From contig JASTWF010000329.1 in the NCBI GenBank assembly GCA_030390025.1, positions 1-64,000 of the forward strand: DNA of 64,000 nt, given 5' to 3'. This DNA is from Squalus acanthias. Taxonomy: Eukaryota. A program made the translations under genes and the position numbers. This document shows, piece by piece, positions 35,626 through 55,343 of the stretch. A model generated the notes under the pieces. The model searched no databases, was not told where the DNA came from, and worked only from the letters and a program-made list of their open reading frames with translations. The stretch's first letter is position 1. Each line of letters starts with the position of its first letter.

Positions 35626-36594
35626 AAGGTGCTGACTCTGGCTGGGTTCAGTTCTACACTCACTGGTTCCCCTCCCTCTCCTCCCCTGAAGGTGCTGACT
35701 CTGGCTGGGTTCAGTTCTACACTCACCGGTTCTCCTCTCTCTCCTCCCCTGAAGGTGCTGACTCTGGCTGGGTTCAGTTCCACACTCACTGGTTTCCCTC
35801 CCTCTCCTCCCCTGAAGGTGCTGACTCTGGCTGGGTTCAGTTCCACAGTCACTGGTTCCCCTCCCTCTCCACCCTTAAGGTGCTGACTCTGGCTGGGTTC
35901 AGTTCTACACTCACTGGTTCACCTCCCTCTCCTCCCCTGAAGGTGCTGACTCTGGCTGGATTCAGTTCCACAGTCACTGGTTCCCCTCTCCTCCCCTGAA
36001 GGTGCTGACTCTGGCTGGGTTCACTTCTACACTCACTGGTTCCCCTCCCTCTCCTCCCCTGAAGCTGCTGACTCTGGCTGGGTTCAGTTCTACACTCACT
36101 GGTTCCCCTCCCTCTCCTCCCCTGAAGGTGCTGACTCTGGCTGGGTTCAGTTCTACACTCACTGGTTCCCCTCCCTCTCCTCCCCTGAAGGTGCTGACTC
36201 TGGCTGGGTTCAGTTCACTCATTGGTTCCCCTCCCTCTCCTCCCCTGAAGGTGCTGACTCTGGCTGGGTTCAGTTCTACACTCACTGGTTCCCCTCCCTC
36301 TCCTCCCCTGAAGGTGCTGAATCTGGCTGGGTTCAGTTCTACACTCACTAGTTCCTCTCTCTCCTCCCCTGAAGGTGCTGACTCTGGCTGGGTTCAGTTC
36401 TACACTCACTGGTTCCCCTCCCTCTCCTCCCCTGAAGGTGCTGACTCTGGCTGGGTTCAGTTCTACACTCACTGGTTCCCCTCCCTCTCCTCCCCTTAAG
36501 GTGCTGACTCTGGCTGGGTTCAGTTCACTCACTGGTAACCCTCCCTGTCCTCCCCTGAAGGTGCTGACTCTGGCTGGGTTCAGTTCCACACTCA
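35626..36594 (-). repeat. 63-bp G-rich minisatellite (reverse orientation), about 15 units
   Basis: Reverse complement of the 10268-12142 unit. Confidence 0.96.
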
Positions 36595-36599
36595 AGGGG

Positions 36600-37020
36600 A
36601 CCCTGAGGCCCTGCCCACGTTTTTTCCTTTACAAAGATGGCCGTGCGAATCAAGATGGCGGCGAACAAAGACAATGCTTTCCTTTACAAAGATGGCCGCC
36701 CTTAGCCTCGGCCTGTTACCGGGAAAAAGCCCCGGAGCTGCAAACGCGGAACCTGTAGGTTCTCATTCGGGCTTGCGGCCTACACTAGGTGTTTATGAAG
36801 CTCACACGCCGGGTCTGTTACCTCTCTGCGCCCCGGTGATTCGTAATCGGCGTAAAAACCGCGTCTCCCAACTCGGCCCGCTCCCAGCACTCGCCTGGCT
36901 CTGATCACCGTGACACTGCGCATGCTCCAAATACAGGCGGGCACTGCGCCTGCGCACTGGGCTCCTCCAGTGTGAATGGGGCACATCCTCCCCGCGGGGC
37001 ATGCTGGGGAACATTGAAAG
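36600..37020 (-). promoter_or_regulatory. Repeated CpG promoter/first-exon cassette, probably serving ZNF copy 4
   Basis: Reverse complement of the 9933-10255 cassette, with YY1-like AAGATGGCGGC (36652-36662) and TGCGCATGCTC. Confidence 0.6.
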
Positions 37021-37164
37021 CCCCAATTAGTGAATGGAGAATGAGTTTCTGTGACCCCATTGAGAGAAAATTCATCAATAATTCACACAGAAACCCCAGT
37101 GCACGGGCACTCTGCCATGGTTCAGTCCTGGATGTGATTAATAACAGAATCCAAACCCCTGCAG

Positions 37165-38332: not shown

Positions 38333-38346
38333 TCTCTGGAGTTTAG

Positions 38347-38718
38347 CCAAGTTCCGCACTCATGAGGATGGCCTCAATCGCGATATCGGGTTCATGTCAC
38401 GATACAGAACGTGACTTGACATCATGGCCGGTCTTCCCAGGTGTTTTTTTTTTTTAAAAAGACTAACACAAGAACACAAATTGACAGGATATGCAGCCAG
38501 CAGGTGGTTTGACACGTTGGACCCCCTGGGACACATCTCATTGTCTTGGCTGTGCTCTTAGTGTGTCTTTGATGTAGGGAAATATTTGAATAGATTTTGT
38601 CTGTGTTTAAATTGTGAATTCTGGGAGATTCTCTCACTGCTAACTTACCTGAGGAAGGAGCGACAGCTCCGAAAGCTTGTAAAATTAAATAAATCTGTTG
38701 GACTATAACCTGGTGTTG
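38347..38718 (+). mobile_element. Penelope-like element 3' fragment (end of GIY-YIG ORF plus terminal repeat), left part; continues at 53055-53107
   Basis: Encodes AKFRTHEDGLNRDIGFMSRYRT*, resembling PLE C-termini. It carries a hammerhead motif and is flanked by the 8-bp duplication GAGTTTAG (38339-38346, 53108-53115). Confidence 0.75.
38645..38682 (+). ncRNA. Minimal hammerhead ribozyme motif of Penelope type
   Basis: CTGAGGA-A, stem II GGAGC-GACA-GCTCC, GAAA, overlapping palindrome AAGCTT. Confidence 0.65.
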
Positions 38719-38785
38719 ATCTTTTTGGTTGGACAAACACAAATTTACTGCAAATCAATTAAAACTTTAAATGAAACTTAATAAA

Positions 38786-41700
38786 TCAAATTAAAATTTG
38801 AAAGTCCGGGGTGACGATGCACTCCAGTCCCCGCGGCGCCCACCGGTCGCGGAAAAACTCAAGCGTGCCGGCGGACACCGCGTGCTCCATCTCCAGGGCC
38901 ACCCGGGCGCGAACATGGCCGCGGAAGAGAGGCAGGCAATCGGGCCGAACGACCCCCTCGACCGCCCGCTGCCTGGACCAATTAATGGCTTTCTTGGCCA
39001 GGCCCAGGAGCAGTCCTACGAGGAGGTCCTCCGACCTACCCGCTCCCCTCCGCACCGGGTGACCGTAGATCAGGAGCGTGGGGCTGAAGTGCAACCAGAA
39101 ATTGAGGAGCAGCCCCTTCAAATAATGAAAGAGGGGCTGCAACCTCTCACACTCAATATAAATGTGATAGACGGACTCCTCTAGGCCGCAGAAATGACAA
39201 GCAGCCTGGGAGTCCGTAAACCTACTTAAAATCCTATTGCACGGGACTGCTCCGTGCAACACCCTCCAGGCCAAGTCCCCAATAGAACAAGGGAAGACTC
39301 CCGCGTAGAGAGCCTTCCAATGGGGACCTTCGCCTCCGCCGGACGGCAGGATGGTACGCCAAGGCGTGTCCGGACGGCAGACGAAGATGGCAAAGTGGAG
39401 AGTGTGCAGGAGCAGCCCGTACAGGAAACGCCTCCGTGCGGATTGAAAGGGCACGGAGGGCATTTCTCCGAGAAGGCTCAAGTGGTGAGGCGGCGGCTCC
39501 CGAGGGAGGATTCGGGGCCGGGCGCCGATAAGGAATTCCGTCCGAACGGGGGTCAGTTCGGACGGGATCGCCCCACGTGCTTGAGCCTCCTCGACACACC
39601 TAGTGGAGACGGGGCCCAGTGCCACTTTTAGCGACTCGATGGCTTTGACCGCGAGCCGGACGTTGACCCAGGACATGCGCCTCGCCAACTCCTCCGGCGC
39701 CATCCAGCCCGCTCCTCCGCCATCGAGCAGGTCCCCGACTCTGGTCACCTTACCGGGCACAGCCCTGCCCTCCGCCAGCCAGCCGAACCCGCGGTCGTGG
39801 AGGTGCGGATTCCTGAACAGCGGCTCCCGAAGGACGGCCGCCGCTCCTGACGGGGGAGAACTGCGCTCGGAGGCGACGCTGTTCCAAACCCATAGCAGTT
39901 CCTGGTAGAAGACAGGCAGCTCCCGCAGGCTGGCACGCGTGCCACCCACTCTCACAAACAGGAGCTGCGTGTCGTAATTGAGGCCGTGCAGCTGGCGGAA
40001 GAAATACGTCGCCAGCGCACGCCACCTAGGAGGATTCTCCACGTACAGGTATCTCTGCAGCGTCTGAAGACGGAAAGTCGCCGCCTGGGTGCGAAGGCAC
40101 ACCAGCGCCTGACCGCCCTCCCTAAGCGGGAGACTCAAAACCGCGGCAGAGACCCAGTGCTTCCTTTTGTCCCAGAAGAAGTCGACGAGCTTCTTCTGCA
40201 TCTTGGCGACAAACGCAGGGGGAGGGATCAAAGTGACCAACCGGTACCACAACATGGCGGCCACCAGCTGGTTTATGACCAGCGCTCGACCCCTGTAGGA
40301 CAACACTCGGAGCAGTCCTGTCCAGCGCCCTAGGCGAGCGGTGACTTTGGCCTCCAGCTCTTGCCAGTTCGCCGGCCAGGCGTCCTCGGCCGGGCTGAGG
40401 TAGACTCCCAGGTAGAGGAGGTGCGTGGTGCTCCAGGCGAAAGGCCCGAACTCCTCCGGCAGGGAGTCCACCCGCCATGGGCCCACCAGGAGTCCAGAAC
40501 ATTTCTCCCAGTTGATCTTGGCGGAGGATGCGTCCGAGTAAATCTGCTGGCATTCTCGCATCCTCCGCAAGTCGACGGGATCCGTGACCGCGAGGAGCAC
40601 GTCATCGGCGTAAGCCGAGAGGACCACCTCCACGCCCGGCCCTTGCAGAGCCAGTCCCGTCAACCTCTTCCGCAAGAGGCGCAGGAAAGGCTCCACGCAA
40701 ACGGCGTATAACTGACCGGACATGGGGCATCCCTGACGCACCCCCCTCCCGAAGCGAAGGGGCGCCGTCAAAGACCCGTTAACTTTAATCAGACACTCCG
40801 CGGCGGCGTACAGAAGTCGGATCCGGGCGACGAAATGCGTCCCGAACCCGAATGCGCGCAGAGTCCCGAAAAGATACTCGTGATCCACCCTGTCGAACGC
40901 CTTCTCCTGATCCAGGGAAAGGAAGGCGACCGACAGACCAGCCCTCTGGGAATGGTGGACCAGGTCCCGGACCAGATGGATGTTATCGTGGATACTCCGG
41001 CCCGGGACCGTGTAGGACTGGTCGGGGTGGATCATGCGGGCCAGCACGGTGCCAAGGCGAGCAGACATAGCCCTGGCGAAAATTTTGTAGTCCGTGCTGA
41101 GGAGGGAGACCGGGCGCCAGTTCTTAAGTAGGCGGAGATCGCCCTTCTTGGGCAGCAGGACGATGACCGCCCTGCGCCAAGAGAGGGGCATCTCCCCGGT
41201 CGCCAGACTTTCCCCCAGGACCCGCGCGTAGTCGTCCCCCAAGACGTCCCAGAACGCCCTGTGGAACTCCACGGTCAGCCCGTCCAGCCCCGGGGACTTG
41301 CCCCTCGAGAGCTGGCGCAGGGCGCCGGTCAGCTCCGCCAGGCTTAGCGGAGCTTCTAAATTCTCGGCGCCCTCCGGGCCGACCTTCGGCAGGTCCTCCC
41401 ACAAAACTCTGCGCGCATCCTCGCTGGACGGATCCGAAGAGAACAGAGCCCCGTAATAGGCCCGGGCCTCCGCGCTGATGCCCTCCGGATCCGAGACCAG
41501 AGATCCGTCGTCGGCCAGCAGCCCCAAGAGCTGCTTACGGACCCCCCGTCTTTTTTCCAGCGAGTAGAAGAAGGGGGAGCCGCGGTCCAGGTCCCGCAGG
41601 AGCTGGATCCGCGACCTCACGTACGCGCCTCGGGACCCGACCAGCTGCAGGTCCTTCAGCGCGCCCTTCTTCTCTTCGTACACCTTCCGCAGGGCCGGGT

Positions 41701-42686
41701 CCTCGACGACTTGACCGAGACGGGACTCCAGGTCGAGCACTTCTTTCTCCAATCGCCCGACCCGGGCCTCCCGCCTCTTGGTCGACCCCTTCGCGTACTC
41801 CTGACAGAAGACGCGGACGTGAGCCTTGCCCACGTCCCACCATAGCCTCAAGGAGGGGAAGCCTCCCCGCTTCCTTCTCCAGTCGGCCCAGAACCGGCGA
41901 AACGAATCCCGGAACCGCGCGTCCTCCAGCAGCAGGTTGTTAAAATGCCAGTACGCGGACCCCCCCCCGCGCGCGCAGCGGAGCGAGCTCCGCCCACACC
42001 AGGTGGTGGTCCGTGCACGGCACCGGCCGCATGGAAGCCGCCGGAACGCAGGAGACGTACGCCCGGGAAATGTAAAGGCGGTCGATTCTGGACCTTCCTC
42101 CTCCAGACCTCACGCTCGTGAAGGCGCTGGAGTCGGGATGGAGATTTCGCCAGACGTCCACCAAGTCGAAGGACCCGACCAGGTCCCGCAACTTCTCCAT
42201 CGCCGCCGGGCTTCGCGGGGGACCCGACCGGTCCCGCGCCTCGAGGGTACAATTGAAATCCCCCCCGAGGATGACGCACTCGCCCACGTCGATGGAGCCC
42301 AGAAGAGCGGACACTTCTCCGAAGAAGCGCACTTGCTGCGCACCGGTCCGGGGGGCGTACACGTTCACTAAATGGAGCGGCACGCCTCCCAGGCGAACAG
42401 TGACCTGGAGCAAGCGGCCCGGCACGTGCTCCTTGACCCTCAAGATCTCCGGCTGAAAATGCGGGGCCAGCAAGACAGCCACCCCGCAGGAATTGTTGGA
42501 GAGGTGACTCATGCTGACCCCTCCTTGCCACTCCAGGAGCCACGTGGCCTCGTCTCCCGGAACGGTGTGGGTTTCTTGCAGGAAGCACACCGCATATTTC
42601 CCGTCCCGAAGGACCGAGAAGTTATTGAATCTACGGCGCGCCTCCCTGCTGCCGTTGATGTTGAGGCTGGCTATGGTTATCTTCAT
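38786..42686 (-). CDS. Tx1 copy A ORF2 (APE endonuclease, reverse transcriptase, C-terminal CCHC), about 1299 aa with one +1 frameshift in a C-run near 41960-41968
   Basis: SLNINGS, LQETH, GGDFN, SRIDR, TDHH; KSPGLDG, WRPVSLL, LDQEKAFDRV, GVRQGCP, YADD; CHFC...H...C. Confidence 0.9.
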
Positions 42687-42711
42687 CTCAGAAGCATAGT
42701 GCAACCTCTAC

Positions 42712-44869
42712 CTAACGGAGGGGAGGGAGGGCGGTCACTGACGACCGCCACTCCCTCAGCAGCCCAGTGTGGAACGTCTTGAGCCGACGCAGCTCGAGCC
42801 GGCCAACGTCCTTGTCCGCGCCCATGATTTTAACGGCGGCGCGGACGGACACGACGAGCAGCGTCAGCTCCGACCACTTGTCGAGGGCCAGCCGGATCTT
42901 CTTGTGACGACCCTGGCTCATGGCCATAAAATCCCGGAGTTCCCCTACGGGGATGAGGGGAGAGTCGGTGAAGGGCACGAGGGCGTCCATCGCCTCGCTG
43001 CCGATGGACTCCAAATCGTCCTCGATGCCCCCCACCGAGTCCCCGTCCTCCTCCGGGAGGTCGTCACCGGCGGCCAACCCGTCCGTCACACAGGGTGCAG
43101 CGAACGGCTCGGCCGCACCGGCCGGCCCCGCCTCCGTCACGATCCCACCCCCAGGATCGGTGGCAGAGGAGTCCACCCTGGGCTCCTTCAGGGGCGCCGG
43201 GCCGGGAGGCGGCGGCGGCGGTTCGGGGCCCCCCCCCCGCCTCAGGCGCCGGGGCGACCGGAGAAACCGGGGAGAAAATAATCCCAAATTCCTCCAGCAC
43301 GTCCGGCGCCAACAACAGAGACGGAGTCAGGGGGCTTTCCGTCTCCCCGCCACCAACCTCCGACCCAGCGGGCTGGGGATTGCTACACTCCTCCACCAGG
43401 TCGAGCAGTCCCTGGGAGATATCTGGGTTATAAAAGGCGGGCTCGGCTTCAGCCTCTTTGGCCTCGCCCGCCCCAGTCCCCAGGACGCCCGACCCGGCGA
43501 GGAGCAACGGTTCCGGTTCTACATTTCCCTCCGCGGGTTGTTCCGCGCCCCCCCCCACGGGCAGGGTCTCTTCCCCATCCCCGGGAGGCACAGGTCGGAC
43601 AGACTCGGCTGTCTCACCCTCCCGAGGGACAGACGACCCCTGCCGATCGCGCGCGACGATGACGGTGGTGGGGTGGGGCGCAGCACCCGCGGCGGGCGAC
43701 TGCCCCCCTTTTGCGGAGGGACCTTCCTCCTCGCAGTCCTCCTGCTGGGGGCGGAGCTTTCTTTTTAACAAGTTGGGGCCCGGAGAGGGGGAGGCCTCCA
43801 TGTCTGCTGGGGCCTCCCTCTCTGCCCCCTTCCGACGACTGGGTTTCTTGGGCCCCTCGGGCCCGAGCCCGGCCGCAGGTCTTGATTTAGCTGCCTCAGC
43901 AGTTGCGGTCACGGTCACGGGCCCGGGCACGAGGACCCCCCCAGTCTCATGCGTCCCGACCAACTCCGCGATATACTCGGGCGTGAGTTCGGTCAATTCA
44001 GATGTTTCCTCCGCGAGGGGATCCGCCCTTAGGTGTTTAGTTTTCCTACGCGCCTTCCTTCCCCCCGGACGCTCTCCCTCCTCCCCGCCGGAGGCCGTGG
44101 TGGTGTTGGCCTCCGATTTCGACCGCGCATCCGTCGCCGTCGACGCGCGGACAGTATCAGGGGGAGGGGGGGCGGCGGCGCCAACCCTGGCCGCGCCAGG
44201 TGTCGTGGCGGCCTTGGAGGCGGGGCAGTTTTTGCGGACGTGCCCCACCTCCTTACAGGCGTAGCACCGCGCGCCGTCCGAGGTCCAGAAGACGCGGTGG
44301 GCGGTCCCCCCGTGGAGCACCGTGAACGCGCCGTCCGCGTCCTCCTCCCGCGCCAGCCGGACGAAAAGCTGGCGCCGGAAGGAGAAGACGTGCCGAAGGC
44401 TGGCTTCCCGGAAGCCGAGCGGGATGGGTGTGATCCCCGACCTCACCTCCCCCAGTTGACGTAGGTGGGGGAGGAGGAGCTCACCCGGAACAAAGGGCGG
44501 GACGTTGGAAACCACAATCCTTTGCGCGGTGGCCTCAAGGGGGTCCACCGGCAGGAAGGTCCCGCCCACGGTGAGCCCCTTCTCGATGGCCAGGGACACC
44601 GCCCGCTCCGACCCCAGGAAGAACACAGCCTTGCCGTACATTTTAGAGGCGGCGACGATGGCTGAAGGGCCGACAACCCCAGCCATGGCTTTTACACACG
44701 CCTCTATAGTCATGTTGGGGTGAGTGTAGCTCTTGACCCCATTCTTCCTCGTAAGGAGGGTAAAAGGTGACGGGGTAACAGGAGGACTCGTGGCTGCGGC
44801 CGTGGCCGCGGCTGCCACGCTCGCGTACGTCCTCGCTGCCCCCGCCACCGACGAAGATGTACTCGCCAT
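42712..44869 (-). CDS. Tx1 copy A ORF1 (RRM-like N-terminus, CCHC knuckle, long low-complexity tail), one frameshift in a C-run near 43229-43238
   Basis: IVAASKMYGKAVFFL, VVSNVPPF, CYACKEVGHVRKNC; the ORF is intact in copy B. Confidence 0.88.
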
Positions 44870-45952
44870 AATGGAGGGTTCTTTAAGGGCTACACTCACC
44901 CCAAGTCACAGGCCTGAAGGTGTTAATGGCCTCGGTTTTTTTTTTGTTTTCCCCCTGAGCAGAGGGAGCTCTTAAATTGAAGGCACACCTCTCCCTTTAG
45001 TTGATTGAATTGGGAGAGGGGCCTTCTCCCCTCTGCTCAATGGGTACTTAATTAAAAATAGATTGAGGTGCCTCTTAGAGAGAGAGGCAGAGAGAGACAA
45101 GAGACAAAGAGAGAGAGAGAGAGGGGGGTGGGAAGGAGGGAAGCCGCAAGGGCAGGGTCGCCACTCAGGATGGTGGGTGGGTGGGTGTTGGCAGGGGGGT
45201 GCACTCTCCGATGTAATAAAAGTCTTTGGTGGTGGTCTTCTGGTGGGGGGAGAAGATGTCTTCACCTGGGATAGCTGGAGATGCCCAGGCTCAGTCCTGC
45301 ACCAGGTCTTAACGATGCCCAATTGGATTAAATTAATTGGGGAACTTCACCTAGGCAGCTCCAGCTGTCCCAGGTCAGGCAATGGAAAGGGGTGTTTAAT
45401 ATGGTGTGTGCGGCCTAGCTTTTACAGAAGCCACACACACACACACACCCCTTAGATGTTCCGGCCCTCTTCTTTTCTTCTTTCCTCCCCCCACCTACAA
45501 AACAAAGTCTCTGGGAGAGTGCCCCAGAATCACACCCACCTGTAGCTGTTGTTCTTTCCTTCCTCCTCCTTCCAAACAGATGATGTTTGTTGTTGGTGTT
45601 TTCTCCCCTCTCTCCCTCTCCTAAAATGGAGGCCAATTGAGGAGGCAGTGTGGAAAGGCCTCTCCTCTGTTGTTAATGGCCTTGGCCTTCCTTTCTTTTC
45701 TTCTCCTCTCCTGTCCTCTCTCTCCAGGCACCTCAGTTGTAGTTGTTGGTTGTGGTTGGTGGTGGTCTGCTGTCTGGTCTCCTTCTCCTTCTCCTCTTCC
45801 TGCTCACAGAGACCACCACTCTGCTGCTGCTGCTTCAGCTGCTCACTCTCCTTCTACTGCTGCTGAGGCTATAACCTGGTGTTGATCTTTTTGGTTTGAC
45901 AGAACGCAAATTTACTGTAAATCAATTAAAACTTGAAATGAAACTTAATAAA

Positions 45953-48900
45953 TCAAATTAAAATTTGAAAGTCCGGGGTGACGATGCACTCCAGTCCCCG
46001 CGGCGCCCACCGGTCGCGGAAAAACTCAAGCGTGCCGGCGGACACCGCGTGCTCCATCTCCAGGGCCACCCGGGCGCGAACATGGCCGCGGAAGAGAGGC
46101 AGGCAATCGGGCCGAACGACCCCCTCGATCGCCCGCTGCCTGGACCAATTAATGGCTTTCTTGGCCAGGCCCAGGAGCAGTCCTACGAGGAGGTCCTCCG
46201 ACCTACCCTCTCCCCTCCGCACCGGGTGACCGTAGATCAGGAGCGTGGGGCTGAAGTGCAACCAGAAATTGAGGAGCAGCCCCTTCAAATAATGAAAGAG
46301 GGGCTGCAACCTCTCACATTCAACATAAATGTGATAAACGGACTCCTCCAGGCCGCAAAAATGACAAGCAGCCTGGGAGTCCGTAAACCTACTTAAAATC
46401 CTATTGCACGGGACTGCTCCGTGCAACACCCTCCAGGCCAAGTCCCCAATAGAACAAGGGAAGACTCCCGCGTAGAGAGCCTTCCAATGGGGACCTTCGC
46501 CTCCGCCGGACGGCAGGATGGTACGCCAAGGCGTGTCCGGACGGCAGACGAAGATGGCAAAGTGGAGAGTGTGCAGGAGCAGCCCGTACAGGAAACGCCT
46601 CCGTGCGGATTGAAAGGGCACGGAGGGCATTTCTCCGAGAAGGCTCAAGTGGTGAGGCGGCGGCTCCCGAGGGAGGATTCGGGGCCGGGCGCCGATAAGG
46701 AATTCCGTCCGAACGGGGGTCAGTTCGGACGGGATCGCCCCACGTGCTTGAGCCTCCTCGACACACCTAGTGGAGACGGGGCCCAGTGCCACTTTTAGCG
46801 ACTCGATGGCTTTGACCGCGAGCCGGACGTTGACCCAAGACATGCGCCTCGCCAACTCCTCCGGCGCCATCCAGCCCGCTCCTCCGCCATCGAGCAGGTC
46901 CCCGACTCTGGTCACCTTACCGGGCACAGCCCTGCCCTCCGCCAGCCAGCCGAACCCGCGGTCGTGGAGGTGCGGATTCCTGAACAGCGGCTCCCGAAGG
47001 ACGGCCGCCGCTCCTGACGGGGGAGAACTGCGCTCGGAGGCGACGCTGTTCCAAACCCATAGCAGTTCCTGGTAGAAGACAGGCAGCTCCCGCAGGCTGG
47101 CACGCGTGCCACCCACTCTCACAAACAGGAGCTGCGTGTCGTAATTGAGGCCGTGCAGCTGGCGGAAGAAATACGTCGCCAGCGCACGCCACCTAGGAGG
47201 ATTCTCCACGTACAGGTATCTCTGCAGCGTCTGAAGACGGAAAGTCGCCGCCTGGGTGCGAAGGCACACCAGCGCCTGACCGCCCTCCCTAAGCGGGAGA
47301 CTCAAAACCGCGGCAGAGACCCAGTGCTTCCTTTTGTCCCAGAAGAAGTCGACGAGCTTCTTCTGCATCTTGGCGACAAACGCAGGGGGAGGGATCAAAG
47401 TGACCAACCGGTACCACAACATGGCGGCCACCAGCTGGTTTATGACCAGCGCTCGACCCCTGTAGGACAACACTCGGAGCAGTCCTGTCCAGCGCCCTAG
47501 GCGAGCGGTGACTTTGGCCTCCAGCTCTTGCCAGTTCGCCGGCCAGGCGTCCTCGGCCGGGCTGAGGTAGACTCCCAGGTAGAGGAGGTGCGTGGTGCTC
47601 CAGGCGAAAGGCCCGAACTCCTCCGGCAGGGAGTCCACCCTGCCATGGGCCCACCAGGAGTCCAGAACATTTCTCCCAGTTGATCTTGGCGGAGGATGCG
47701 TCCGAGTAAATCTGCTGGCATTCTCGCATCCTCCGCAAGTCGACGGGATCCGTGACCGCGAGGAGCACGTCATCGGCGTAAGCCGAGAGGACCACCTCCA
47801 CGCCCGGCCCTTGCAGAGCCAGTCCCGTCAACCTCTTCCGCAAGAGGCGCAGGAAAGGCTCCACGCAAACGGCGTATAACTGACCGGACATGGGGCATCC
47901 CTGACGCACCCCCCTCCCGAAGCGAAGGGGCGCCGTCAAAGACCCGTTAACTTTAATGAGACACTCCGCGGCGGCATACAGAAGTCGGATCCGGGCGACG
48001 AAATGCGTCCCGAACCCGAAAGCGCGCAGAGTCCCGAAAAGATACTCGTGATCCACCCTGTCGAACGCCTTCTCCTGATCCAGGGAAAGGAAGGCGACCG
48101 ACAGACCAGCCCTCTGGGAATGGTGGACCAGGTCCCGGACCAGATGGATGTTATCGTGGATACTCCGGCCCGGGACCGTGTAGGACTGGTCGGGGTGGAT
48201 CATGCGGGCCAGCACGGTGCCAAGGCGAGCAGACATAGCCCTGGCGAAAATTTTGTAGTCCGTGCTGAGGAGGGAGACCGGGCGCCAGTTCTTAAGTAGG
48301 CGGAGATCGCCCTTCTTGGGCAGCAGGACGATGACCGCCCTGCGCCAAGAGAGGGGCATCTCCCCGGTCGCCAGACTTTCCCCCAGGACCCGCGCGTAGT
48401 CGTCCCCCAAGACGTCCCAGAACGCCCTGTGGAACTCCACGGTCAGCCCGTCCAGCCCCGGGGACTTGCCCCTCGAGAGCTGGCGCAGGGCGCCGGTCAG
48501 CTCCGCCAGGCTTAGCGGAGCTTCTAAATTCTCGGCGCCCTCCGGGCCGACCTTCGGCAGGTCCTCCCACAAAACTCTGCGCGCATCCTCGCTGGACGGA
48601 TCCGAAGAGAACAGAGCCCCGTAATAGGCCCGGGCCTCCGCGCTGATGCCCTCCGGATCCGAGACCAGAGATCCGTCGTCGGCCAGCAGCCCCAAGAGCT
48701 GCTTACGGACCCCCCGTCTTTTTTCCAGCGAGTAGAAGAAGGGGGAGCCGCGGTCCAGGTCCCGCAGGAACTGGATCCGCGACCTCACGTACGCGCCTCG
48801 GGACCCGACCAGCTGCAGGTCCTTCAGCGCGCCCTTCTTCTCTTCGTACACCTTCCGCAGGGCCGGGTCCTCGACGACCTGACCGAGACGGGACTCCAGG

Positions 48901-49852
48901 TCGAGCACTTCTTTCTCCAATCGCCCGACCCGGGCCTCCCGCCTCTTGGTCGACCCCTTCGCGTACTCCTGACAGAAGACGCGGACGTGAGCCTTGCCCA
49001 CGTCCCACCATAGCCTCAAGGAGGGGAAGCCTCCCCGCTTCCTTCTCCAGTCGGCCCAGAACCGGCGAAACGAATCCCGGAACCGCGCGTCCTCCAGCAG
49101 CAGGTTGTTAAAATGCCAGTACGCGGACCCCCCCCGCGCGCGCAGCGGAGCGAGCTCCGCCCACACCAGGTGGTGGTCCGTGCACGGCACCGGCCGCATG
49201 GAAGCCGCCGGAACGCAGGAGACGTACGCCTGGGAAATGTAAAGGCGGTCGATTCTGGACCTTCCTCCTCCAGACCTCACGCTCGTGAAGGCGCTGGAGT
49301 CGGGATGGAGATTCGCCAGACGTCCACCAAGTCGAAGGACCCGACCAGGTCCCGCAACTTCTCCATCGCCGCCGGGCTTCGCGGGGGACCCGACCGGTCC
49401 CGCGCCTCGAGGGTACAATTGAAATCCCCCCCGAGGATGACGCACTCGCCCACGTCGATGGAGCCCAGAAGAGCGGACACTTCTCCGAAGAAGCGCACTT
49501 GCTGCGCACCGGTCCGGGGGGCGTACACGTTCACTAAATGGAGCGGCACGCCTCCCAGGCGAACAGTGACCTGGAGCAAGCGGCCCGGCACGTGCTCCTT
49601 GACCCTCAAGATCTCCGGCTGAAAATGCGGGGCCAGCAAGACAGCCACCCCGCAGGAATTGTTGGAGAGGTGACTCATGCTGACCCCTCCTTGCCACTCC
49701 AGGAGCCACGTGGCCTCGTCTCCCGGAACGGTGTGGGTTTCTTGCAGGAAGCACACCGCATATTTCCCGTCCCGAAGGACCGAGAAGTTATTGAATCTAC
49801 GGCGCGCCTCCCTGCTGCCGTTGATGTTGAGGCTGGCTATGGTTATCTTCAT
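45953..49852 (-). CDS. Tx1 copy B ORF2, with 1-nt indels near 49311 and 47641
   Basis: Same motifs as copy A; the 3900-nt span equals 1300 codons once the two indels are corrected. Confidence 0.88.
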
Positions 49853-49877
49853 CTCAGAAGCATAGTGCAACCTCTAC

Positions 49878-52034
49878 CTAACGGAGGGGAGGGAGGGCGG
49901 TCACTGACGACCGCCACTCCCTCAGCAGCCCAGTGTGGAACGTCTTGAGCCGACGCAGCTCGAGCCGGTCAACGTCCTTGTCCGCGCCCATGATTTTAAC
50001 GGCGGCGCGGACGGACACGACGAGCAGCGCCAGCTCCGACCACTTGTCGAGGGCCAGCCGGATCTTCTTGTGACGACCCTGGCTCACGGCCATAAAATCC
50101 CGGAGTTCCCCTACGGGGATGAGGGGAGAGTCGGTGAAGGGCACGAGGGCGTCCATCACCTCGCTGCCGATGGACTCCAAATCGTCCTCGAAGCCCCCCA
50201 CCGAGTCCCCGTCCTCCTCCGGGAGGTCGTCACCGGCGGCCGACCCGTCCGTCGCACGGGGTGCAGCGAACGGCTCGGCCGCACCGGCCAGCCCCGCCTC
50301 CGTCACGATCCCACCCCCAGGATCGGTGGCAGAGGAGTCCACCCTGGGCTCCTTCAGGGGCGCCGGGCCGGGAGGCGGCGGCGGCGGTTCGGGGCCCCCC
50401 CCCGCCTCAGGCGCCGGGGCGACCGGAGAAACCGGGGAGAAAATAATCCCAAATTCCTCCAGCACGTCCGGCGCCAACAACAGAGACGGAGTCAGGGGGC
50501 TTTCCGTCTCCCCGCCACCAACCTCCGACCCAGCAGGCTGGGGATTGCTACACTCCTCCACCAGGTCGAGCAGTCCCTGGGAGATGTCTGGGTTATAAAA
50601 GGCGGGCTCGGCTTCAGCCTCTTTGGCCTCGCCCGCCCCAGTCCCCAGGACGCCCGACCCGGCGAGGAGCAACGGTTCCGGTACTACATTTCCCTCCGCG
50701 GGTTGTTCCGCGCCCCCCCCCACGGGCAGGGTCTCTTCCCCATCCCCGGGAGGCACAGGTCGGACAGACTCGGCTGTCTCACCCTCCCGAGGGACAGACG
50801 ACCCCTGCCGATCACGCGCGACGATGACGGTGGTGGGGTGGGGCGCAGCACCCGCGGCGGGCGACTGCCCCCCTTTTGCGGAGGGACCTTCCTCCTCGCA
50901 GTCCTCCTGCTGGGGGCAGAGCTTTCTTTTTAACAAGTTGGGGCCCGGAGAGGGGGAGGCCTCCATGTCTGCTGGGGCCTCCCTCTCTGCCCCCTTCCGA
51001 CGACTGGGTTTCTTGGGCCCCTCGGGCCCGAGCCCGGCCGCAGGTCTTGATTCAGCTGCCTCAGCAGTTGCGGTCACGGTCGCGGGCCCGGGCACGAGGA
51101 CCCCCCCAGTCTCATGCGTCCCGACCAACTCCGCCATGTACTCGGGCGTGAGTTCGGTCAATTCCGATGTTTCCTCCGCGAGGGGATCCGCCCTTTGGTG
51201 TTTAGTTTTCCTACGCGCCTTCCTTCCCCCCGGACGCTCTCCCTCCTCCCCGCCGGAGGCCGTGGTGGTGTTGGCCTCCGATTTCGACCGCGCAACCGTC
51301 GTCGTCGACGCGCGGACAGTATCAGGGGGAGGGGGGGCGGCGGCGCCAACCCCGGCCGCGCCAGGTGTCGTGGCGGCCTTGGAGGCGGGGCAGTTTTTGC
51401 GGACGTGCCCCACCTCCTTACAGGCGTAGCACCGCACGCCGTCCGAGGTCCAGAAGACGCGGTGGGCGGTCCCCCCGTGGAGCACCGTGAACGCGCCGTC
51501 CGCGTCCTCCTCCCGCGCCAGCCGGACGAAAAGCTGGTGCCGGAAGGAGAAGACGTGCCGAAGGCTGGCTTCCCGGAAGCCGAGCGGGATGGGTGTGATC
51601 CCCGACCTCACCTCCCCCAGTTGACGTAGGTGGGGGAGGAGGAGCTCACCCGGAACAAAGGGCGGGACGTTGGAAACCACAATCCTTTGCGCGGTGGCCT
51701 CAAGGGGGTCCACCGGCAGGAAGGTCCCGCCCACGGTGAGCCCCTTCTCGATGGCCAGGGACACCGCCCGCTCCGACCCCAGGAAGAACACAGCCTTGCC
51801 GTACATTTTAGAGGCGGCGACGATGGCTGAAGGGCCGACAACCCCAGCCATGGCTTTAACGCACGCCTCTATAGTCATGTTGGGGTGAGTGTAGCTCTTG
51901 ACCCCATTCTTCCTCGTAAGGAGGGTAAAAGGTGACGGGGTAACAGGAGGACTCGTGGCTGCGGCCGTGGCCGCGGCTGCCACGCTCGCGTACGTCCTCG
52001 CTGCCCCCGCCACCGACGAAGATGTACTCGCCAT
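49878..52034 (-). CDS. Tx1 copy B ORF1, intact, about 718 aa from ATG 52034
   Basis: Continuous ORF with CCHC knuckle CYACKEVGHVRKNC. Confidence 0.92.
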   Translation of the reverse strand: MASTSSSVAGAARTYASVAAAATAAATSPPVTPSPFTLLTRKNGVKSYTHPNMTIEACVKAMAGVVGPSAIVAASKMYGKAVFFLGSERAVSLAIEKGLTVGGTFLPVDPLEATAQRIVVSNVPPFVPGELLLPHLRQLGEVRSGITPIPLGFREASLRHVFSFRHQLFVRLAREEDADGAFTVLHGGTAHRVFWTSDGVRCYACKEVGHVRKNCPASKAATTPGAAGVGAAAPPPPDTVRASTTTVARSKSEANTTTASGGEEGERPGGRKARRKTKHQRADPLAEETSELTELTPEYMAELVGTHETGGVLVPGPATVTATAEAAESRPAAGLGPEGPKKPSRRKGAEREAPADMEASPSPGPNLLKRKLCPQQEDCEEEGPSAKGGQSPAAGAAPHPTTVIVARDRQGSSVPREGETAESVRPVPPGDGEETLPVGGGAEQPAEGNVVPEPLLLAGSGVLGTGAGEAKEAEAEPAFYNPDISQGLLDLVEECSNPQPAGSEVGGGETESPLTPSLLLAPDVLEEFGIIFSPVSPVAPAPEAGGGPEPPPPPPGPAPLKEPRVDSSATDPGGGIVTEAGLAGAAEPFAAPRATDGSAAGDDLPEEDGDSVGGFEDDLESIGSEVMDALVPFTDSPLIPVGELRDFMAVSQGRHKKIRLALDKWSELALLVVSVRAAVKIMGADKDVDRLELRRLKTFHTGLLREWRSSVTALPPLR

Positions 52035-53054
52035 AATGGAGGGTTCTTTAAGGGCTACACTCACCCCAAGTCACAGGCCTGAAGGTGTTAATGGCCTCGG
52101 TTTTTTTTTTGTTTTCCCCTGAGCAGAGGGAGCTCTTAAATTGAAGGCACACCTCTCCCTTTAGTTGATTGAATTGGGAGAGGGGCCTTCTCCCCTCTGC
52201 TCAATGGGTACTTAATTAAAAATAGATTGAGGTGCCTCTTAGAGAGAGAGAGGCAGAGAGAGACAAGAGACAAAGAGAGAGAGAGAGGGGGGTGGGAAGG
52301 AGGGAAGCCGCAAGGGCAGGGTCGCCACTCAGGATGGTAGGTGGGTGGGTGTTGGCAGGGGGGTGCACTCTCCGATGTAATACAAGTCTTTGGTGGTGGT
52401 CTTCTGGTGGGGGGAGAAGATGTCTTCACCTGGGATAGCTGGAGATGCCCAGGCTCAGTCCTGCACCAGGTCTTAACGATGCCCAATTGGATATAATTAA
52501 TTGGGGAACTTCACCTAGGCAGCTCCAGCTGTCCCAGGTCAGGCAATGGGAAAGGGGCGTTTAATATGGTGTGTGCGGCCTAGGTTTTACAGAAGCCACA
52601 CACACTCACACACACACCCCTTAGATGTTCCGGCCCTCTTCTTTTCTTCTTTCCTCCCCCCACCTACAAAACAAAGTCTCTGGGAGAGTGCCCCAGAAAT
52701 AACACCCACCTGTAGATGTTGTTCTTTCCTTCCTCCTCCTTCCAAACAGTTGATGGATGTTGTGTTGTTTTCTCCCCTCTCTCCCTCTCCTAAAATGGAG
52801 GCCAATTGAGGAGGCAGTGTGGAAAGGCCTCTCCTCTGTTGTTAATGGCCTTGGCCTTCCTTTCTTTTCCTTCTCCTCTCCTGTCCTCTCTCTCCAGGCA
52901 CCTCAGTTGTAGTTGTTGGTTGTGTTGGTGGTGGTCTGCTATCTGGTCTCCTTCTCCTTCTCCTCTTCCTGCTCACAGAGACCACCACTCTGCTGCTGCT
53001 GCTTCAGCTGCTCACTCTCCTTCTACTGGCTGCTGAGGCTATAACCTGGTGTTG

Positions 53055-53107
53055 TGCGACTTCTCATTTTTGTCCACCCCAGTCCAACGCCGGCATCTCC
53101 ACATCAT
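53055..53107 (+). mobile_element. Remainder of the Penelope-like terminal repeat
   Basis: TGCGACTTCTC...GTCCACCCCAGTCCAACGCCGGCATCTCCACATCAT, followed by the second GAGTTTAG. Confidence 0.7.
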
Positions 53108-53515
53108 GAGTTTAGAAGAATGAGAGGTGATCGCATTGAAACATACAAGATTCTGAAGGCATTGACAGGGTAGATGCTGAGAGGTTGTTTCCACTGGCTG
53201 GAGTGACTAGAACTAGGGGGCATAGTCTCAGGATAAGGGGTAGGCCATTTGAGACCGAGATGAGGAGGAATTTCTGCACTCAGACAGCTGTGAATCTTTG
53301 GAATTCTCTGCCCCAGAGGGCTGTGAATGTTCAGTCTTTGAGTATATTCAAGGCTGAGATAGATAGATTTTTGGACTCTAGGGGAATCAAGGGATATGGA
53401 GATCAGGCGGGAAAGTGGAGTTGAGGTGGATGATCAGCCATGATCTTATTGAATGGCGGAGCAGGCTCGAGGGGCTGTATGGCCGCATCCTGCTCTTATT
53501 TCTTATGTTCTTATG
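53108..53515 (+). mobile_element. CR1 3' fragment (its first nucleotides lie at 38333-38346)
   Basis: Closely similar to 30931-31354. Confidence 0.9.
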
Positions 53516-54072: not shown

Positions 54073-54729
54073 AGAGCCTCACCATCAGCTGACTCAGTGA
54101 GTGTCAGCAGTGACAGCAGTCCAATCCTGCCCTCAATTGACATCCATACACTTCCCAGTTGATGTCACTGGGTCTCCATCAAGAGCAGGGGCAGTGGCTG
54201 ATTCTTACTCTTAGTTAGCCCAGTGGTACTGAGGATAATTATAGCCCCTGAACTGCTGCCTTATCAGAGATCAAGTAACAGCCCAGACCAAGGATTGAAG
54301 TTGGTACCTTCCTAGTCAGTAGGGCAGAGGGTTTTAAAGTGGAAGGGGGAGAGTGAGAACAGAATATTTAGAAATAAATAATTCTCCACCTTTAAACAAA
54401 ACCTTCGTTACACTGCAAAATTCTGAAGACTTTCAATATTAAACAAGCAAGTCAAATGGATCATCAAAAATAGTGAGACATTTTAGAAAGGCTCAAGTCA
54501 CTGAAACAGACAGGTTTTCAATCACTGCACAGTACAGAAGGGAGCGACTGTTCATGGGAGCTCTGTTAGTGAAGTCCGCCGACACTCCGAGATAAACGGG
54601 TCTGTCGCTTTAACTATAAATAGGCAGAGAAAGGGGAGTCCCTGTCCCTTTAAATATCTGCCCCATTCCCCCAGGCAGTGGGAGGAGGAACAGCGCGCGG
54701 TCCCTTTATATCCTGACCCAGCAGGCCCC

Positions 54730-55200
54730 GCTCTGTGTGGGGGCGGGGCCTGGGGAACCCCATCTGTGTGGGGGCGGGGCCTGGGGAACCCGCTCTGTGT
54801 GGAGGCGGGGCCTGGGGAACACGCTCTGTGTGGGGGCGGGACCTGGGGAACCCCATCTGTGTGGGGGCGGGGCCTGGGGAACCCCATCTGTGTGGGGGCG
54901 GGGCCTGGGGTACCCGCACTGTGTGGGGGCGGAGCCTGGGAAACCCGCTCTGTGTGGGGGCGGGGCCTGTGGAAACCCCTCTGTGTGGGTACGGGACCTG
55001 GGGAACCCGCTCTGTGTGGGGGCGAGGCCTGGGGAACCCGCGCTGTGTGGAGCCGGGGTCTGGGGAAGCCGCGCTGTGTGGGGGCGGGGCCTGGGGAACC
55101 CGCACTGTGTGGGGGCGGGGCCTGGGGACCCACTCTGTGTGGGGGCGGGGCCTGGGGAACCCGCTCTGTGTGGGGGCGGGGCCTGGGGAACCCACTCTGT
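54730..55200. repeat. 31-bp GC-box minisatellite (CTCTGTGTGGGGGCGGGGCCTGGGGAACCCG), about 15 units, followed by about 30-bp repeats to 55340
   Basis: Direct periodicity. Confidence 0.93.
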
Positions 55201-55343
55201 GAAGGGACCACTTACACTGAGACACCAAATCCCGGGACAACTTACATTGAGACACCAAATCCAAGGACCACTTCCTCTGAGAGACCAAATCCAGGGACCA
55301 CTTACATTGTGACATCAAATCCAGGGACCACTTACACTGAGTC

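What the first reader, a model, noticed from the sequence alone, without database searches (positions are those of the whole stretch)
38703..53054. Sequence-specific Tx1 retrotransposon stacked twice into one 16-bp site in a Penelope-like terminal repeat
Seen: three exact copies of CTATAACCTGGTGTTG (38703-38718, 45869-45884, 53039-53054) bound two full-length, same-orientation Tx1 LINEs with the same termini (TSD-A-TSD-B-TSD). Removing both elements and two of the TSD copies restores a contiguous Penelope-like terminal repeat (...CTGTTGGACTATAACCTGGTGTTGTGCGACTT...). The copies differ by substitutions spread along their length, for example in the 3' UTR, so they are not identical duplicates. 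Established: several Tx1-clade families are target-specific (Xenopus Tx1L into a DNA transposon; others into U2 snRNA, tRNA clusters, 5S rRNA or microsatellites), and each insertion regenerates the target. Inference: this family's APE endonuclease recognises a Penelope repeat, making it a retroelement that parasitises another retroelement. I do not recall a Penelope-targeting family but cannot verify novelty.
Basis: partly seen in the sequence, partly recalled or inferred. Interest (0 to 1): 0.88.

Follow-up and report, generated by a model that had tools for sequence, protein, structure and literature searches.

The report
Tx1 LINE targeting Penelope element tails
Two copies of a young Tx1-type jumping gene sit head to tail in one exact 16-letter spot near the end of another jumping gene (a Penelope-like element), and across this genome the family lands at that spot almost every time: a new target for a known habit of this LINE group.

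Summary
Three exact copies of CTATAACCTGGTGTTG bound two full-length minus-strand LINEs: A (38719-45868, 7150 bp) and B (45885-53038, 7154 bp). Removing them restores a contiguous 3' tail of a Penelope-like element (PLE).

- **Clade:** ORF2 has APE and RT domains. It is 51% identical over all 801 aa to Xenopus Tx1 ORF2, against 134 bits to human L1 ORF2p.
- **Site specificity:** 58 of 72 exact A-type 3' ends follow the exact 16-mer. 30 of 32 sampled 3' ends lie in this site. 97,107 empty sites exist.
- **Host:** a PLE with an RT, a GIY-YIG-like C-terminus, head-to-head insertions and a minimal hammerhead-like motif 32 nt upstream of the site.
- **A versus B:** they are not local duplicates. 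Each has a near-identical 3' 682-bp twin elsewhere (B an exact one), yet they differ from each other at 12 sites in the first 1 kb.

Stacking is the family's norm, with arrays of up to 7, and is roughly 50-fold commoner than equal targets would predict. Most full-length copies (439 versus 63) carry a heritable PLE-derived 5' leader; A and B lack it.

Tx1 families that target other transposons, LTR retrotransposons included, are in print. I found no PLE target in print.

The parts
38344..38414 (+). Remnant of the host PLE ORF (end of the GIY-YIG-like domain, stop TGA at 38412-38414). The host copy is 5'-truncated here.
   Evidence: blastn to the PLE in L061 gives 97.6-97.9% identity over 38344-38718. 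The L061 ORF translation ends ...GLNRDIGFMSRYRT*.
38415..38702 (+). PLE 3' UTR / pLTR-equivalent tail upstream of the target. It contains a minimal hammerhead-like motif at 38649-38678: CTGAGGA, a bulged A, GGAGC-gaca-GCTCC, GAAA, then palindromic GCTT.
   Evidence: Read. The same layout is found in 18 of 33 distinct upstream pieces, with GAAA 32 nt before the target and one compensatory helix II variant, GGAGT/ACTCC. There is no Rfam hit.
38703..38718 (.). Target-site duplication, copy 1 (CTATAACCTGGTGTTG).
38719..45868 (-). Tx1-clade LINE copy A, 7150 bp. 3' UTR 38719-38785 with no poly(A). ORF2 38786 to about 42686, frame broken near 41960. ORF1 43064-44869 (601 aa, cut short near 43229 relative to B). 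5' UTR 44870-45868 with the 'type-1' 5' end.
   Evidence: ORFs. Pfam finds RVT_1 at 3.7e-38, Exo_endo_phos at 6e-13 and zf-CCHC. The 3' 682 bp is 99-100% identical to 43 other places in the genome (44 matches including its own).
45869..45884 (.). Target-site duplication, copy 2, shared by A's 5' end and B's 3' end.
   Evidence: The same head-to-tail junction occurs 21 times in the genome.
45885..53038 (-). Tx1-clade LINE copy B, 7154 bp. ORF2 is in three pieces (45953-47773, 47289-49199, 49277-49852), with frame breaks near 47640 and 49310. ORF1 49878-52034 (718 aa). 5' UTR 52035-53038 with the 'type-1' 5' end.
   Evidence: The 3' 682 bp has an identical copy at C251:33116-33797 and 38 more places scoring 1217-1226 bits against 1231 for itself.
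53039..53054 (.). Target-site duplication, copy 3.
53055..53108 (+). Last 54 nt of the host PLE tail (TGCGACTTCTCATTTTTGTCCACC...CACATCATG).
   Evidence: blastn shows 100% identity to L061 over 53039-53108. The same tail follows the target in uninterrupted copies.

Best explanation
A and B are two members of one young, high-copy Tx1-clade LINE family. The family integrates, always antisense to its host, at one fixed site in the 3' tail (pLTR-equivalent) of a very abundant Penelope-like element.

**Likely mechanism (inferred from how APE-type LINEs and Tx1L work).** The element's endonuclease nicks the strand that reads ...CTATAACCTGGTGTTG^TG. The 3' OH primes reverse transcription of the LINE RNA, whose 3' end is ...CCAAAAAGAT with no poly(A). 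The second strand is cut 16 bp away, so each insertion duplicates the 16-mer and leaves a copy of it at both ends.

**What this implies for the window.** One host site received two separate insertions, from two sub-lineages that differ in their 3' UTR. The result is TSD-A-TSD-B-TSD.

**Shown:** the anatomy, the clade, the site specificity, the host's identity, and that A and B are not recent duplicates of each other.

**Inferred:** that the endonuclease (rather than, or together with, RNA-target pairing) sets the site; the order of the two insertions; and why stacking is so frequent.
For: - **Anatomy.**
- **Clade.** The 801-aa RT/C-terminal ORF matches Xenopus YTX2/Tx1 ORF2 at E 1.5e-255, 868 bits, 51% identity and 100% coverage. 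The best solved relative, human L1 ORF2p, scores only 134 bits over residues 2-365.
- **Site specificity.** The exact junction of the 16-mer plus the first 12 nt of the element occurs 413 times, against 0 for the reversed control. Of 72 exact copies of A's terminal 30-mer, 58 are preceded by the exact 16-mer. Of 32 distinct 3' ends in the 30 best-matching loci, 24 have the exact site and 6 have the same site with small junction variants. The remaining 2 lie in unrelated DNA, and both of those flanks end in GTGTTG.
- **Independent events.** Beyond about 60 nt the flanks differ between loci: different PLE sub-variants, head-to-head centres and truncations.
- **Empty sites.** There are 97,107.
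- **Host is a PLE.** It has an RVT_1 ORF ending in a GIY-YIG-like motif. That motif aligns to the PF01541 hit of a 45%-identical turtle homologue. Shark homologues are 79-90% identical. Head-to-head inverted pairs are flanked by short duplications. The layout is a minimal hammerhead as described for PLE pLTRs (PMC4209133, passages).
- **A and B are separate events.** A's 3' 682 bp has 43 other matches at 99-100%. B's has an identical copy on another contig and 38 more near-identical ones. A and B differ from each other at 12 sites in the first 1 kb. Over the first 6 kb, A-B (45 mismatches) is no closer than A or B to a copy on contig C8 (40 and 37).
Against: - No cleavage assay exists. The two off-target flanks that end in GTGTTG fit primer-RNA pairing as well as they fit endonuclease specificity.
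- No phylogenetic tree with reference clades was built, and Repbase/Dfam could not be consulted.
- Stacking is much too frequent for equal, independent choice among targets. 27 of the first 100 listed junctions lie one unit length (7.08-7.21 kb) after another, and 21 of 63 type-1 5' ends are occupied. Yet LINE-adjacent sites are under 1% of all exact sites.
- Array neighbours tend to share a 5'-end type. Recombination or some local process therefore contributes to arrays and cannot be excluded for A/B.
- A and B share the rarer type-1 5' end.
- Spanning reads could not be obtained.
Confidence: 0.8

Rival explanations
1. The tandem, and the arrays in general, arise not from repeated endonuclease-mediated insertion at the regenerated site but from local processes. 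One candidate is unequal exchange between copies or between occupied alleles. Another is a multi-unit cDNA made in one event, when the reverse transcriptase jumps from the 5' end of one LINE RNA to the 3' end of another.
For: Stacking is roughly 50-fold above what equal targets predict. Array neighbours often share variants: C1 j3 = j4, C5 j2 = j3 and j4 = j5. Type-1 5' ends cluster together in arrays. Arrays of identically 5'-truncated short units exist, such as the 763-782 bp units in L064, and these are hard to explain by independent insertions.
Against: Arrays are heterogeneous. They mix A-type and B-type 3' ends and hold two or three 5'-leader types in one array. A and B differ by sub-lineage markers that have identical twins on other contigs. 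The spacer in the window is exactly the 16-bp duplication, as expected of a staggered cut. Even unequal exchange between alleles would still need two separate insertions at the same site.
Confidence: 0.13
2. Assembly artefact: a single insertion, or two haplotypes of it, was laid out as a tandem.
For: The window lies on a numbered minor contig (C2550). The repeat is 7 kb long and 99.2% identical. I could not lay spanning reads.
Against: A and B carry different sub-lineage markers and different frame breaks. Unit-spaced arrays of 2-7 copies occur at many places on the largest contigs.
Confidence: 0.03
3. The shared flanks reflect co-amplification of a LINE-plus-PLE composite (segmental duplication, or the PLE carrying the LINE along), not site choice by the LINE.
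For: The immediate 40-60 nt of flank are nearly the same everywhere.
Against: Further out the flanks are unrelated and belong to different PLE variants and structures. Both sides of insertions carry the 16-bp duplication. 97,107 empty sites show that the flank is simply the conserved host sequence.
Confidence: 0.02

Closest known systems
Tx1L of Xenopus laevis (type element of the Tx1 clade), which inserts at one site in the non-autonomous DNA transposon Tx1D
   Same: The ORF2 here is 51% identical to Tx1L ORF2 over 801 aa. It has APE + RT, inserts at a fixed site inside another, multicopy mobile element, and has a site-specific habit (PMC4494074, passages citing Christensen et al. 2000).
   Different: The host is a retroelement (PLE), not a DNA transposon. 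The element sits antisense in the host's 3' tail, next to a ribozyme-like motif. Long unit-spaced arrays are common.
Crocodilian Tx1-Mar families and their SINE passenger SINEU-3 (target Mariner-N4_AMi); Tx1-8_Crp and Tx1-4_AMi (targets: LTR retrotransposons); Tx1-9_AMi (Harbinger) (Kojima 2015, PMC4494074, passages read)
   Same: These are Tx1 families that aim at other transposons, retrotransposons included. Tandem insertions 'sandwiching a TSD' of 16 bp are ascribed to sequential insertion. Some of these families carry acquired 5' heads.
   Different: The target class here (PLE) is not among those listed in the passages I read; 'Penelope' occurs 0 times in that paper. The acquired 5' leader here derives from the target element itself, not from U1/U2 snRNA genes.
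Keno, Kibi and Koshi (Tx1-clade elements specific for U2 snRNA genes and microsatellites; Kojima and Fujiwara 2004, as cited in PMC4494074)
   Same: Same clade, with a sequence-specific target in a multicopy sequence.
   Different: Different targets. Fish 'pol-like' relatives are only 35-38% identical to the ORF2 here.
R1/R2 of rDNA
   Same: They insert at one conserved site of a multicopy host sequence. Pairing of co-transcribed target sequence with the target has been proposed to sharpen integration (as cited in PMC4494074).
   Different: R2 uses a restriction-like endonuclease. The ORF2 here matches R2 proteins only weakly (49-75 bits).

Membership tests
Tx1 clade of APE-type non-LTR retrotransposons | ORF2 with an N-terminal apurinic-like endonuclease followed by a reverse transcriptase | tested here: met
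   Exo_endo_phos scores 6e-13 (A) and 1.4e-9 (B). RVT_1 scores 3.7e-38 and 1.5e-37.
Tx1 clade of APE-type non-LTR retrotransposons | RT/ORF2 groups with Tx1L rather than with L1 or other clades | tested here: met
   By similarity only: 868 bits, 51% identity and 100% coverage to YTX2_XENLA, against 134 bits to human L1 ORF2p and 75 bits or less to R2. No tree with reference clades was built.
Tx1 clade of APE-type non-LTR retrotransposons | Target-sequence preference (Kojima's criterion: one kind of sequence in more than 20% of flanks) | tested here: met
   58 of 72; 30 of 32.
Tx1 clade of APE-type non-LTR retrotransposons | C-terminal zinc-binding motif of ORF2 and a CCHC knuckle in ORF1 (features recalled as usual for the group) | tested here: inconclusive
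   zf-RVT scores 24.4-25.8 bits, below the 27.5 cut-off. zf-CCHC scores 20.9-21.6 bits, at the 20.8 cut-off.
Penelope-like elements (endonuclease-bearing) | Single ORF with an RT followed by a C-terminal GIY-YIG endonuclease | tested here: met
   RVT_1 scores 1.2e-8 on the L061 ORF. Pfam GIY-YIG does not hit that ORF itself. Its residues 467-516 (VVYLIRC..WYIGET..NGH) align to the PF01541 hit (25.7 bits, cut-off 22.6) of homologue P0144, which is 45% identical over 533 aa. Other homologues carry a precomputed PF01541.
Penelope-like elements (endonuclease-bearing) | Complex insertions (partial tandem or inverted copies, variable short target duplications) | tested here: met
   L061 holds a head-to-head pair with 1055-nt arms that are 100% complementary. 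Inverted pairs are flanked by direct repeats of about 9-11 bp of host DNA, and both outer ends are 3' tails. Both-strand cleavage and extension are reported for a PLE (PMC11167929, abstract and first part of the main text).
Penelope-like elements (endonuclease-bearing) | Hammerhead ribozyme motif in the terminal repeat | tested here: inconclusive
   A hand-made scan finds CUGANGA, a 4-7 bp helix II, GAAA and a palindromic AGCU in 18 of 33 distinct pieces, with one compensatory change. This fits the min-HHR description in PMC4209133 (passages). Self-cleavage was not tested.
Rfam hammerhead families | Match to a curated covariance model | tested here: not met
   No hammerhead match at E<=1 in 18.5 kb of the window or in 65 kb of loci. 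None at E<=10 in a 171-nt piece holding a canonical copy.

The most novel reading that the evidence does not exclude
The family has captured part of its own target. Most full-length copies begin with a heritable leader of about 55 nt taken from the PLE tail, so each insertion plants a fresh, complete landing site at its own 5' end. Copies then pile up into arrays far more often than equal targets allow, which implies either preferential integration next to resident copies or multi-unit cDNAs. On this reading the LINE both exploits a ribozyme-adjacent conserved stretch of 97,000 PLE tails and seeds its own targets.
Probability: 0.35. Interest if true: 0.65.

Novelty: new member of a known kind. 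Interest (0 to 1): 0.45.

Why it matters
Site-specific LINEs show how a retrotransposon can pick a 'safe' multicopy landing site, and their endonucleases are natural sequence-specific nickases.

This family adds a third class of retroelement, the PLE, to the known Tx1 targets. It offers a very large natural experiment: 97,107 empty sites, hundreds of occupied ones, and near-identical young copies.

Its site lies 32 nt downstream of the GAAA of the PLE's hammerhead-like motif. That stretch may be conserved because it matters to the PLE itself.

The excess of stacked copies and the target-derived 5' leader bear on how LINE arrays form. That question is usually inaccessible because copies are old.

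Tried and rejected
- **Rfam.** No hammerhead family was found in the window, in 18 loci, or in a 171-nt canonical piece. A weak HDV-ribozyme-like hit at 36967-37050 is at chance level (E 0.86).
- **Pfam GIY-YIG.** It does not hit the shark PLE ORF directly. I used an aligned homologue instead.
- **Long-duplication model for the PLE-like spacer.** I considered that the spacer at most head-to-tail junctions is a long local target duplication, and rejected it. In the C1 array the spacers differ at 4 sites from the PLE flank of the same array. The C5 array holds two spacer types. The rare CAAATCAAG spacer variant is followed by a LINE 3' end 51 times and by PLE sequence 77 times, whereas overall there are 413 occupied and 97,107 empty sites.
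- **Sequencing runs.** 24 were listed and no RNA holder was listed. Of the four runs laid, all are short assembled contigs, and no listed piece bridges the A/B junction with 31 letters on both sides. The tandem could therefore be neither confirmed nor refuted by reads.
- **Genome allowance.** Within-array versus between-array divergence therefore rests on one extra full-length copy and on 12 short junction pieces.
- **Not done.** No tree, no Repbase/Dfam look-up and no structure prediction.
- **Literature searches.** Searches for a Penelope-targeting Tx1 family returned no paper describing one. Repbase Reports are not in the library.
- **Earlier notes.** Look-ups by place and by sequence returned nothing.
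Full report
**Observation.** The 16-mer CTATAACCTGGTGTTG occurs exactly three times in the window, at 38703, 45869 and 53039. No additional match appears at up to 2 mismatches, and 0 of 100 shuffles reached three matches. Between the copies lie 7150 bp (A, 38719-45868) and 7154 bp (B, 45885-53038). A and B align with 58 mismatches (36 transitions, 22 transversions) and 20 gap columns, 99.19% identity. The differences cluster in the 67-nt 3' UTR, the ORF1 region and the roughly 1-kb 5' UTR. The central 3 kb of ORF2 has 6 mismatches. The bases just outside the 16-mer differ at every boundary, so the duplication is exactly 16 bp.

**The elements.** Both lie on the minus strand. Each has an ORF1 with a CCHC knuckle and an ORF2 with Exo_endo_phos, RVT_1 and a sub-threshold zf-RVT. 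There is no poly(A): in element orientation the 3' end reads ...GTCCAACCAAAAAGAT. As assembled, neither copy is intact. Relative to each other, A has single-base frame breaks near 41960 (ORF2, between APE and RT) and near 43229 (ORF1, 601 against 718 aa). B has breaks near 47640 and 49310, both in ORF2.

**Clade.** The 801-aa RT/C-terminal ORF of A matches the Xenopus 'Transposon TX1 149 kDa protein' at E 1.5e-255, 868 bits, 51% identity and 100% coverage. Sea-turtle and other 'YTX2'-named proteins follow. The best solved relative, human L1 ORF2p, reaches 134 bits over residues 2-365 only, and R2 proteins 75 bits or less. I therefore file the family in the Tx1 clade by similarity. No tree was built.

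**The host sequence.** By blastn, an uninterrupted element from contig C1 (L061) matches window 38344-38718 and 53039-53108, and the two query ranges overlap by the 16 nt. In L061 two copies lie head to head, with 1055-nt arms that are 100% complementary. The longer copy has a 569-aa open frame with RVT_1 (1.2e-8). It ends ...VVYLIRCSKGCSRAWYIGETMQTLRQRMNGH...GLNRDIGFMSRYRT*. Pfam's GIY-YIG model does not hit this frame. The stretch does align to the PF01541 hit of a 45%-identical turtle homologue, and many 40-45% homologues carry PF01541. The closest proteins, at 79-90% identity, come from sharks, so the genome is probably that of a cartilaginous fish.

In 30 loci chosen by the left flank alone, the tail after the site ends at variable points. 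Inverted pairs are bounded by short direct repeats of host DNA. This fits the reported cleavage and extension of both strands by a PLE protein (PMC11167929, abstract and first part of the main text).

Upstream of the site, 18 of 33 distinct pieces show CUGANGA, a bulged A, a 4-7 bp helix II with a variable loop, GAAA and a palindromic AGCU. The GAAA lies 32 nt before the 16-mer, and one variant is compensatory (GGAGT/ACTCC). That is the 'min-HHR' layout described for PLE terminal repeats, including pairs on opposite strands 100-700 bp apart (PMC4209133, passages). Rfam finds no hammerhead, so the ribozyme remains a motif-level reading. In the window the host copy is a 5'-truncated tail only: the last 71 nt of the ORF plus the 3' UTR.

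**Site specificity.** The window's genome is held (3.71 Gb; the window is contig C2550).
- A's 3' 682 bp has 1861 first-look candidates, and the 44 scored matches are 99-100% identical.
- The junction of the 16-mer plus the first 12 nt of the element occurs 413 times, against 0 for the reversed control.
- A's terminal 30-mer occurs 72 times, and 58 of these are preceded by the exact 16-mer. The 14 others include 5 in one array of 287-bp units.
- Among 32 distinct 3' ends in the 30 loci retrieved with an element-only query, 24 have the exact site and 6 have the same site with small junction changes. The other 2 lie in unrelated DNA, and both those flanks end in GTGTTG.
- Beyond about 60 nt the flanks differ from locus to locus, so these are separate events.
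- The empty 26-mer across the site occurs 97,107 times, so occupancy is about 0.4%.

**Are A and B separate insertions?** A's and B's 3' UTRs differ by sub-lineage markers. B's 3' 682 bp has an identical copy at C251:33116-33797 and 38 more places scoring 1217-1226 bits, against 1231 for itself. A's has 43 other matches at 99-100%. A and B differ from each other at 12 sites in the first 1 kb. In a three-way alignment with a full-length copy from contig C8, the first 6 kb give A-B 45, A-C8 40 and B-C8 37 mismatches, in a mosaic pattern. The condition 'A and B far closer to each other than to any other copy' is therefore not met. The order of insertion cannot be told from these data.

**Stacking is the rule, and too frequent.** Of the first 100 listed junctions (of 413), 43 have a same-strand neighbour 7.0-7.3 kb away, and 27 gaps are one unit length. 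20 of 65 loci hold two or more junctions, with arrays of up to 7. The window's kind of 5' end (type-1...CTGCTGAGG next to the 16-mer) occurs 63 times, and 21 of these abut the 3' end of another copy. LINE-adjacent sites number about 500 against 97,107 empty ones. Equal, independent choice would therefore give well under 1% stacked junctions. This roughly 50-fold excess is my estimate, not a tool result.

Arrays are heterogeneous. They mix A-type and B-type 3' ends, and hold two or three leader types per array, which argues against plain tandem duplication. Neighbours are nonetheless often alike. Arrays of identically truncated short units also exist. A local bias, recombination or multi-unit cDNA must therefore contribute.

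**A target-derived 5' leader.** Most full-length copies do not start like A and B. In + orientation their 5' UTR (CTG)n runs into GCTCCT[TC/CA]GTCAG-CA-GCTCCGAAAGCTTGTGATTTCAAATAAAnCTGTTGGA, followed by the 16-mer. That is an inverted 13-nt half of the hammerhead-like motif followed by 38 nt of PLE sequence up to the site. This junction occurs 439 times.

The leader travels with the LINE. Spacers in the C1 array differ at 4 sites from the PLE flank of that array, and the C5 array holds two spacer types. The rare CAAATCAAG variant is followed by a LINE 3' end 51 times and by PLE sequence 77 times, and many of those 77 lie one unit beyond an occupied one. Loose ends in contigs of two coded organisms continue with the same leader. 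A and B belong to the minority without this leader.

**Comparison with what is known.** Passages of Kojima 2015 (PMC4494074) state several points.
- Tx1L inserts in the DNA transposon Tx1D.
- Keno, Kibi and Koshi insert in U2 genes and microsatellites.
- Crocodilian Tx1-Mar families insert in Mariner-N4_AMi.
- Tx1-9_AMi inserts in Harbinger elements.
- Tx1-8_Crp and Tx1-4_AMi insert in LTR retrotransposons.
- Tandem SINEU-3 copies 'sandwiching a TSD' arise by sequential insertion.
- Some families carry U1/U2 heads.

Targeting another mobile element, a retroelement included, and stacking at a regenerated site are thus both in print. 'Penelope' does not occur in that paper. Four searches found no paper describing a PLE-targeting Tx1 family. 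Repbase and Dfam could not be checked. It is not independent evidence, but I re-tested its claim here.

**Verdict.** This is a real, young, site-specific Tx1-clade LINE family whose target is a fixed 16-bp site in the tail of a PLE, and the window shows two separate insertions stacked at one site. It is a new member of a known kind. The more unusual features are the target-derived leader and the excess of arrays. They lie outside the window's two copies and are only partly worked out.

Noticed in passing
L063:2234-2380 and 9402-9548; L065-L076; genome-wide counts: Most full-length copies of the family (439 against 63) begin with a leader of about 55 nt derived from the PLE tail. The leader is an inverted half of the hammerhead-like motif plus 38 nt up to the site, and it travels with the LINE. 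A rare spacer variant is LINE-linked: 51 copies are followed by a LINE 3' end and 77 by PLE sequence, against 413 occupied and 97,107 empty sites overall.
   Followed up: partly
Genome G000, e.g. C8:78131364-78174420, C5:87172747-87201482, C2:164562682-164584255: Unit-spaced (about 7.17 kb) head-to-tail arrays of up to 7 copies are common and heterogeneous in sub-lineage. Stacking is about 50-fold above what equal choice among targets would give.
   Followed up: partly
L064 (C18:15295000-15303000); C3256:710475-712169; C8:141706905-141710928: There are tandem arrays of short units (763-782 bp, 287 bp, 346-1324 bp). Each unit is a 5'-truncated or internally deleted copy ending at the same point and separated from the next by the 16-mer. 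These could be recombinational amplification or a short non-autonomous derivative.
   Followed up: no
L005:2189-2271, L014:2190-2311, L017/L018: Head-to-head PLE pairs form near-perfect hairpins that Rfam scores as assorted plant or animal miRNA precursors, far below their gathering scores. In L017/L018 both arms of one such pair carry a LINE, tail to tail.
   Followed up: no
window 36000-36621 and 54634-55341: A 63-bp minisatellite (about 9 copies) lies left of the locus, and 30-31-bp tandem repeats (about 14 plus 4 copies) lie right of it.
   Followed up: no
window 36967-37050 (+): A weak HDV-ribozyme-like match (29.4 bits, gathering 50, E 0.86), which is at chance level.
   Followed up: no
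window 53110-53400 (+): Directly right of the PLE tail the sequence reads like the 3' coding end of a CR1/L2-type LINE (a motif recalled from memory, not tested). The PLE copy seems to have inserted into or beside it.
   Followed up: no
runs X1-X19 (coded organisms A-D): Runs labelled with four different coded organisms hold half or more of the sampled words of the A/B junction stretch, so near-identical copies of the family occur in several related organisms.
   Followed up: no
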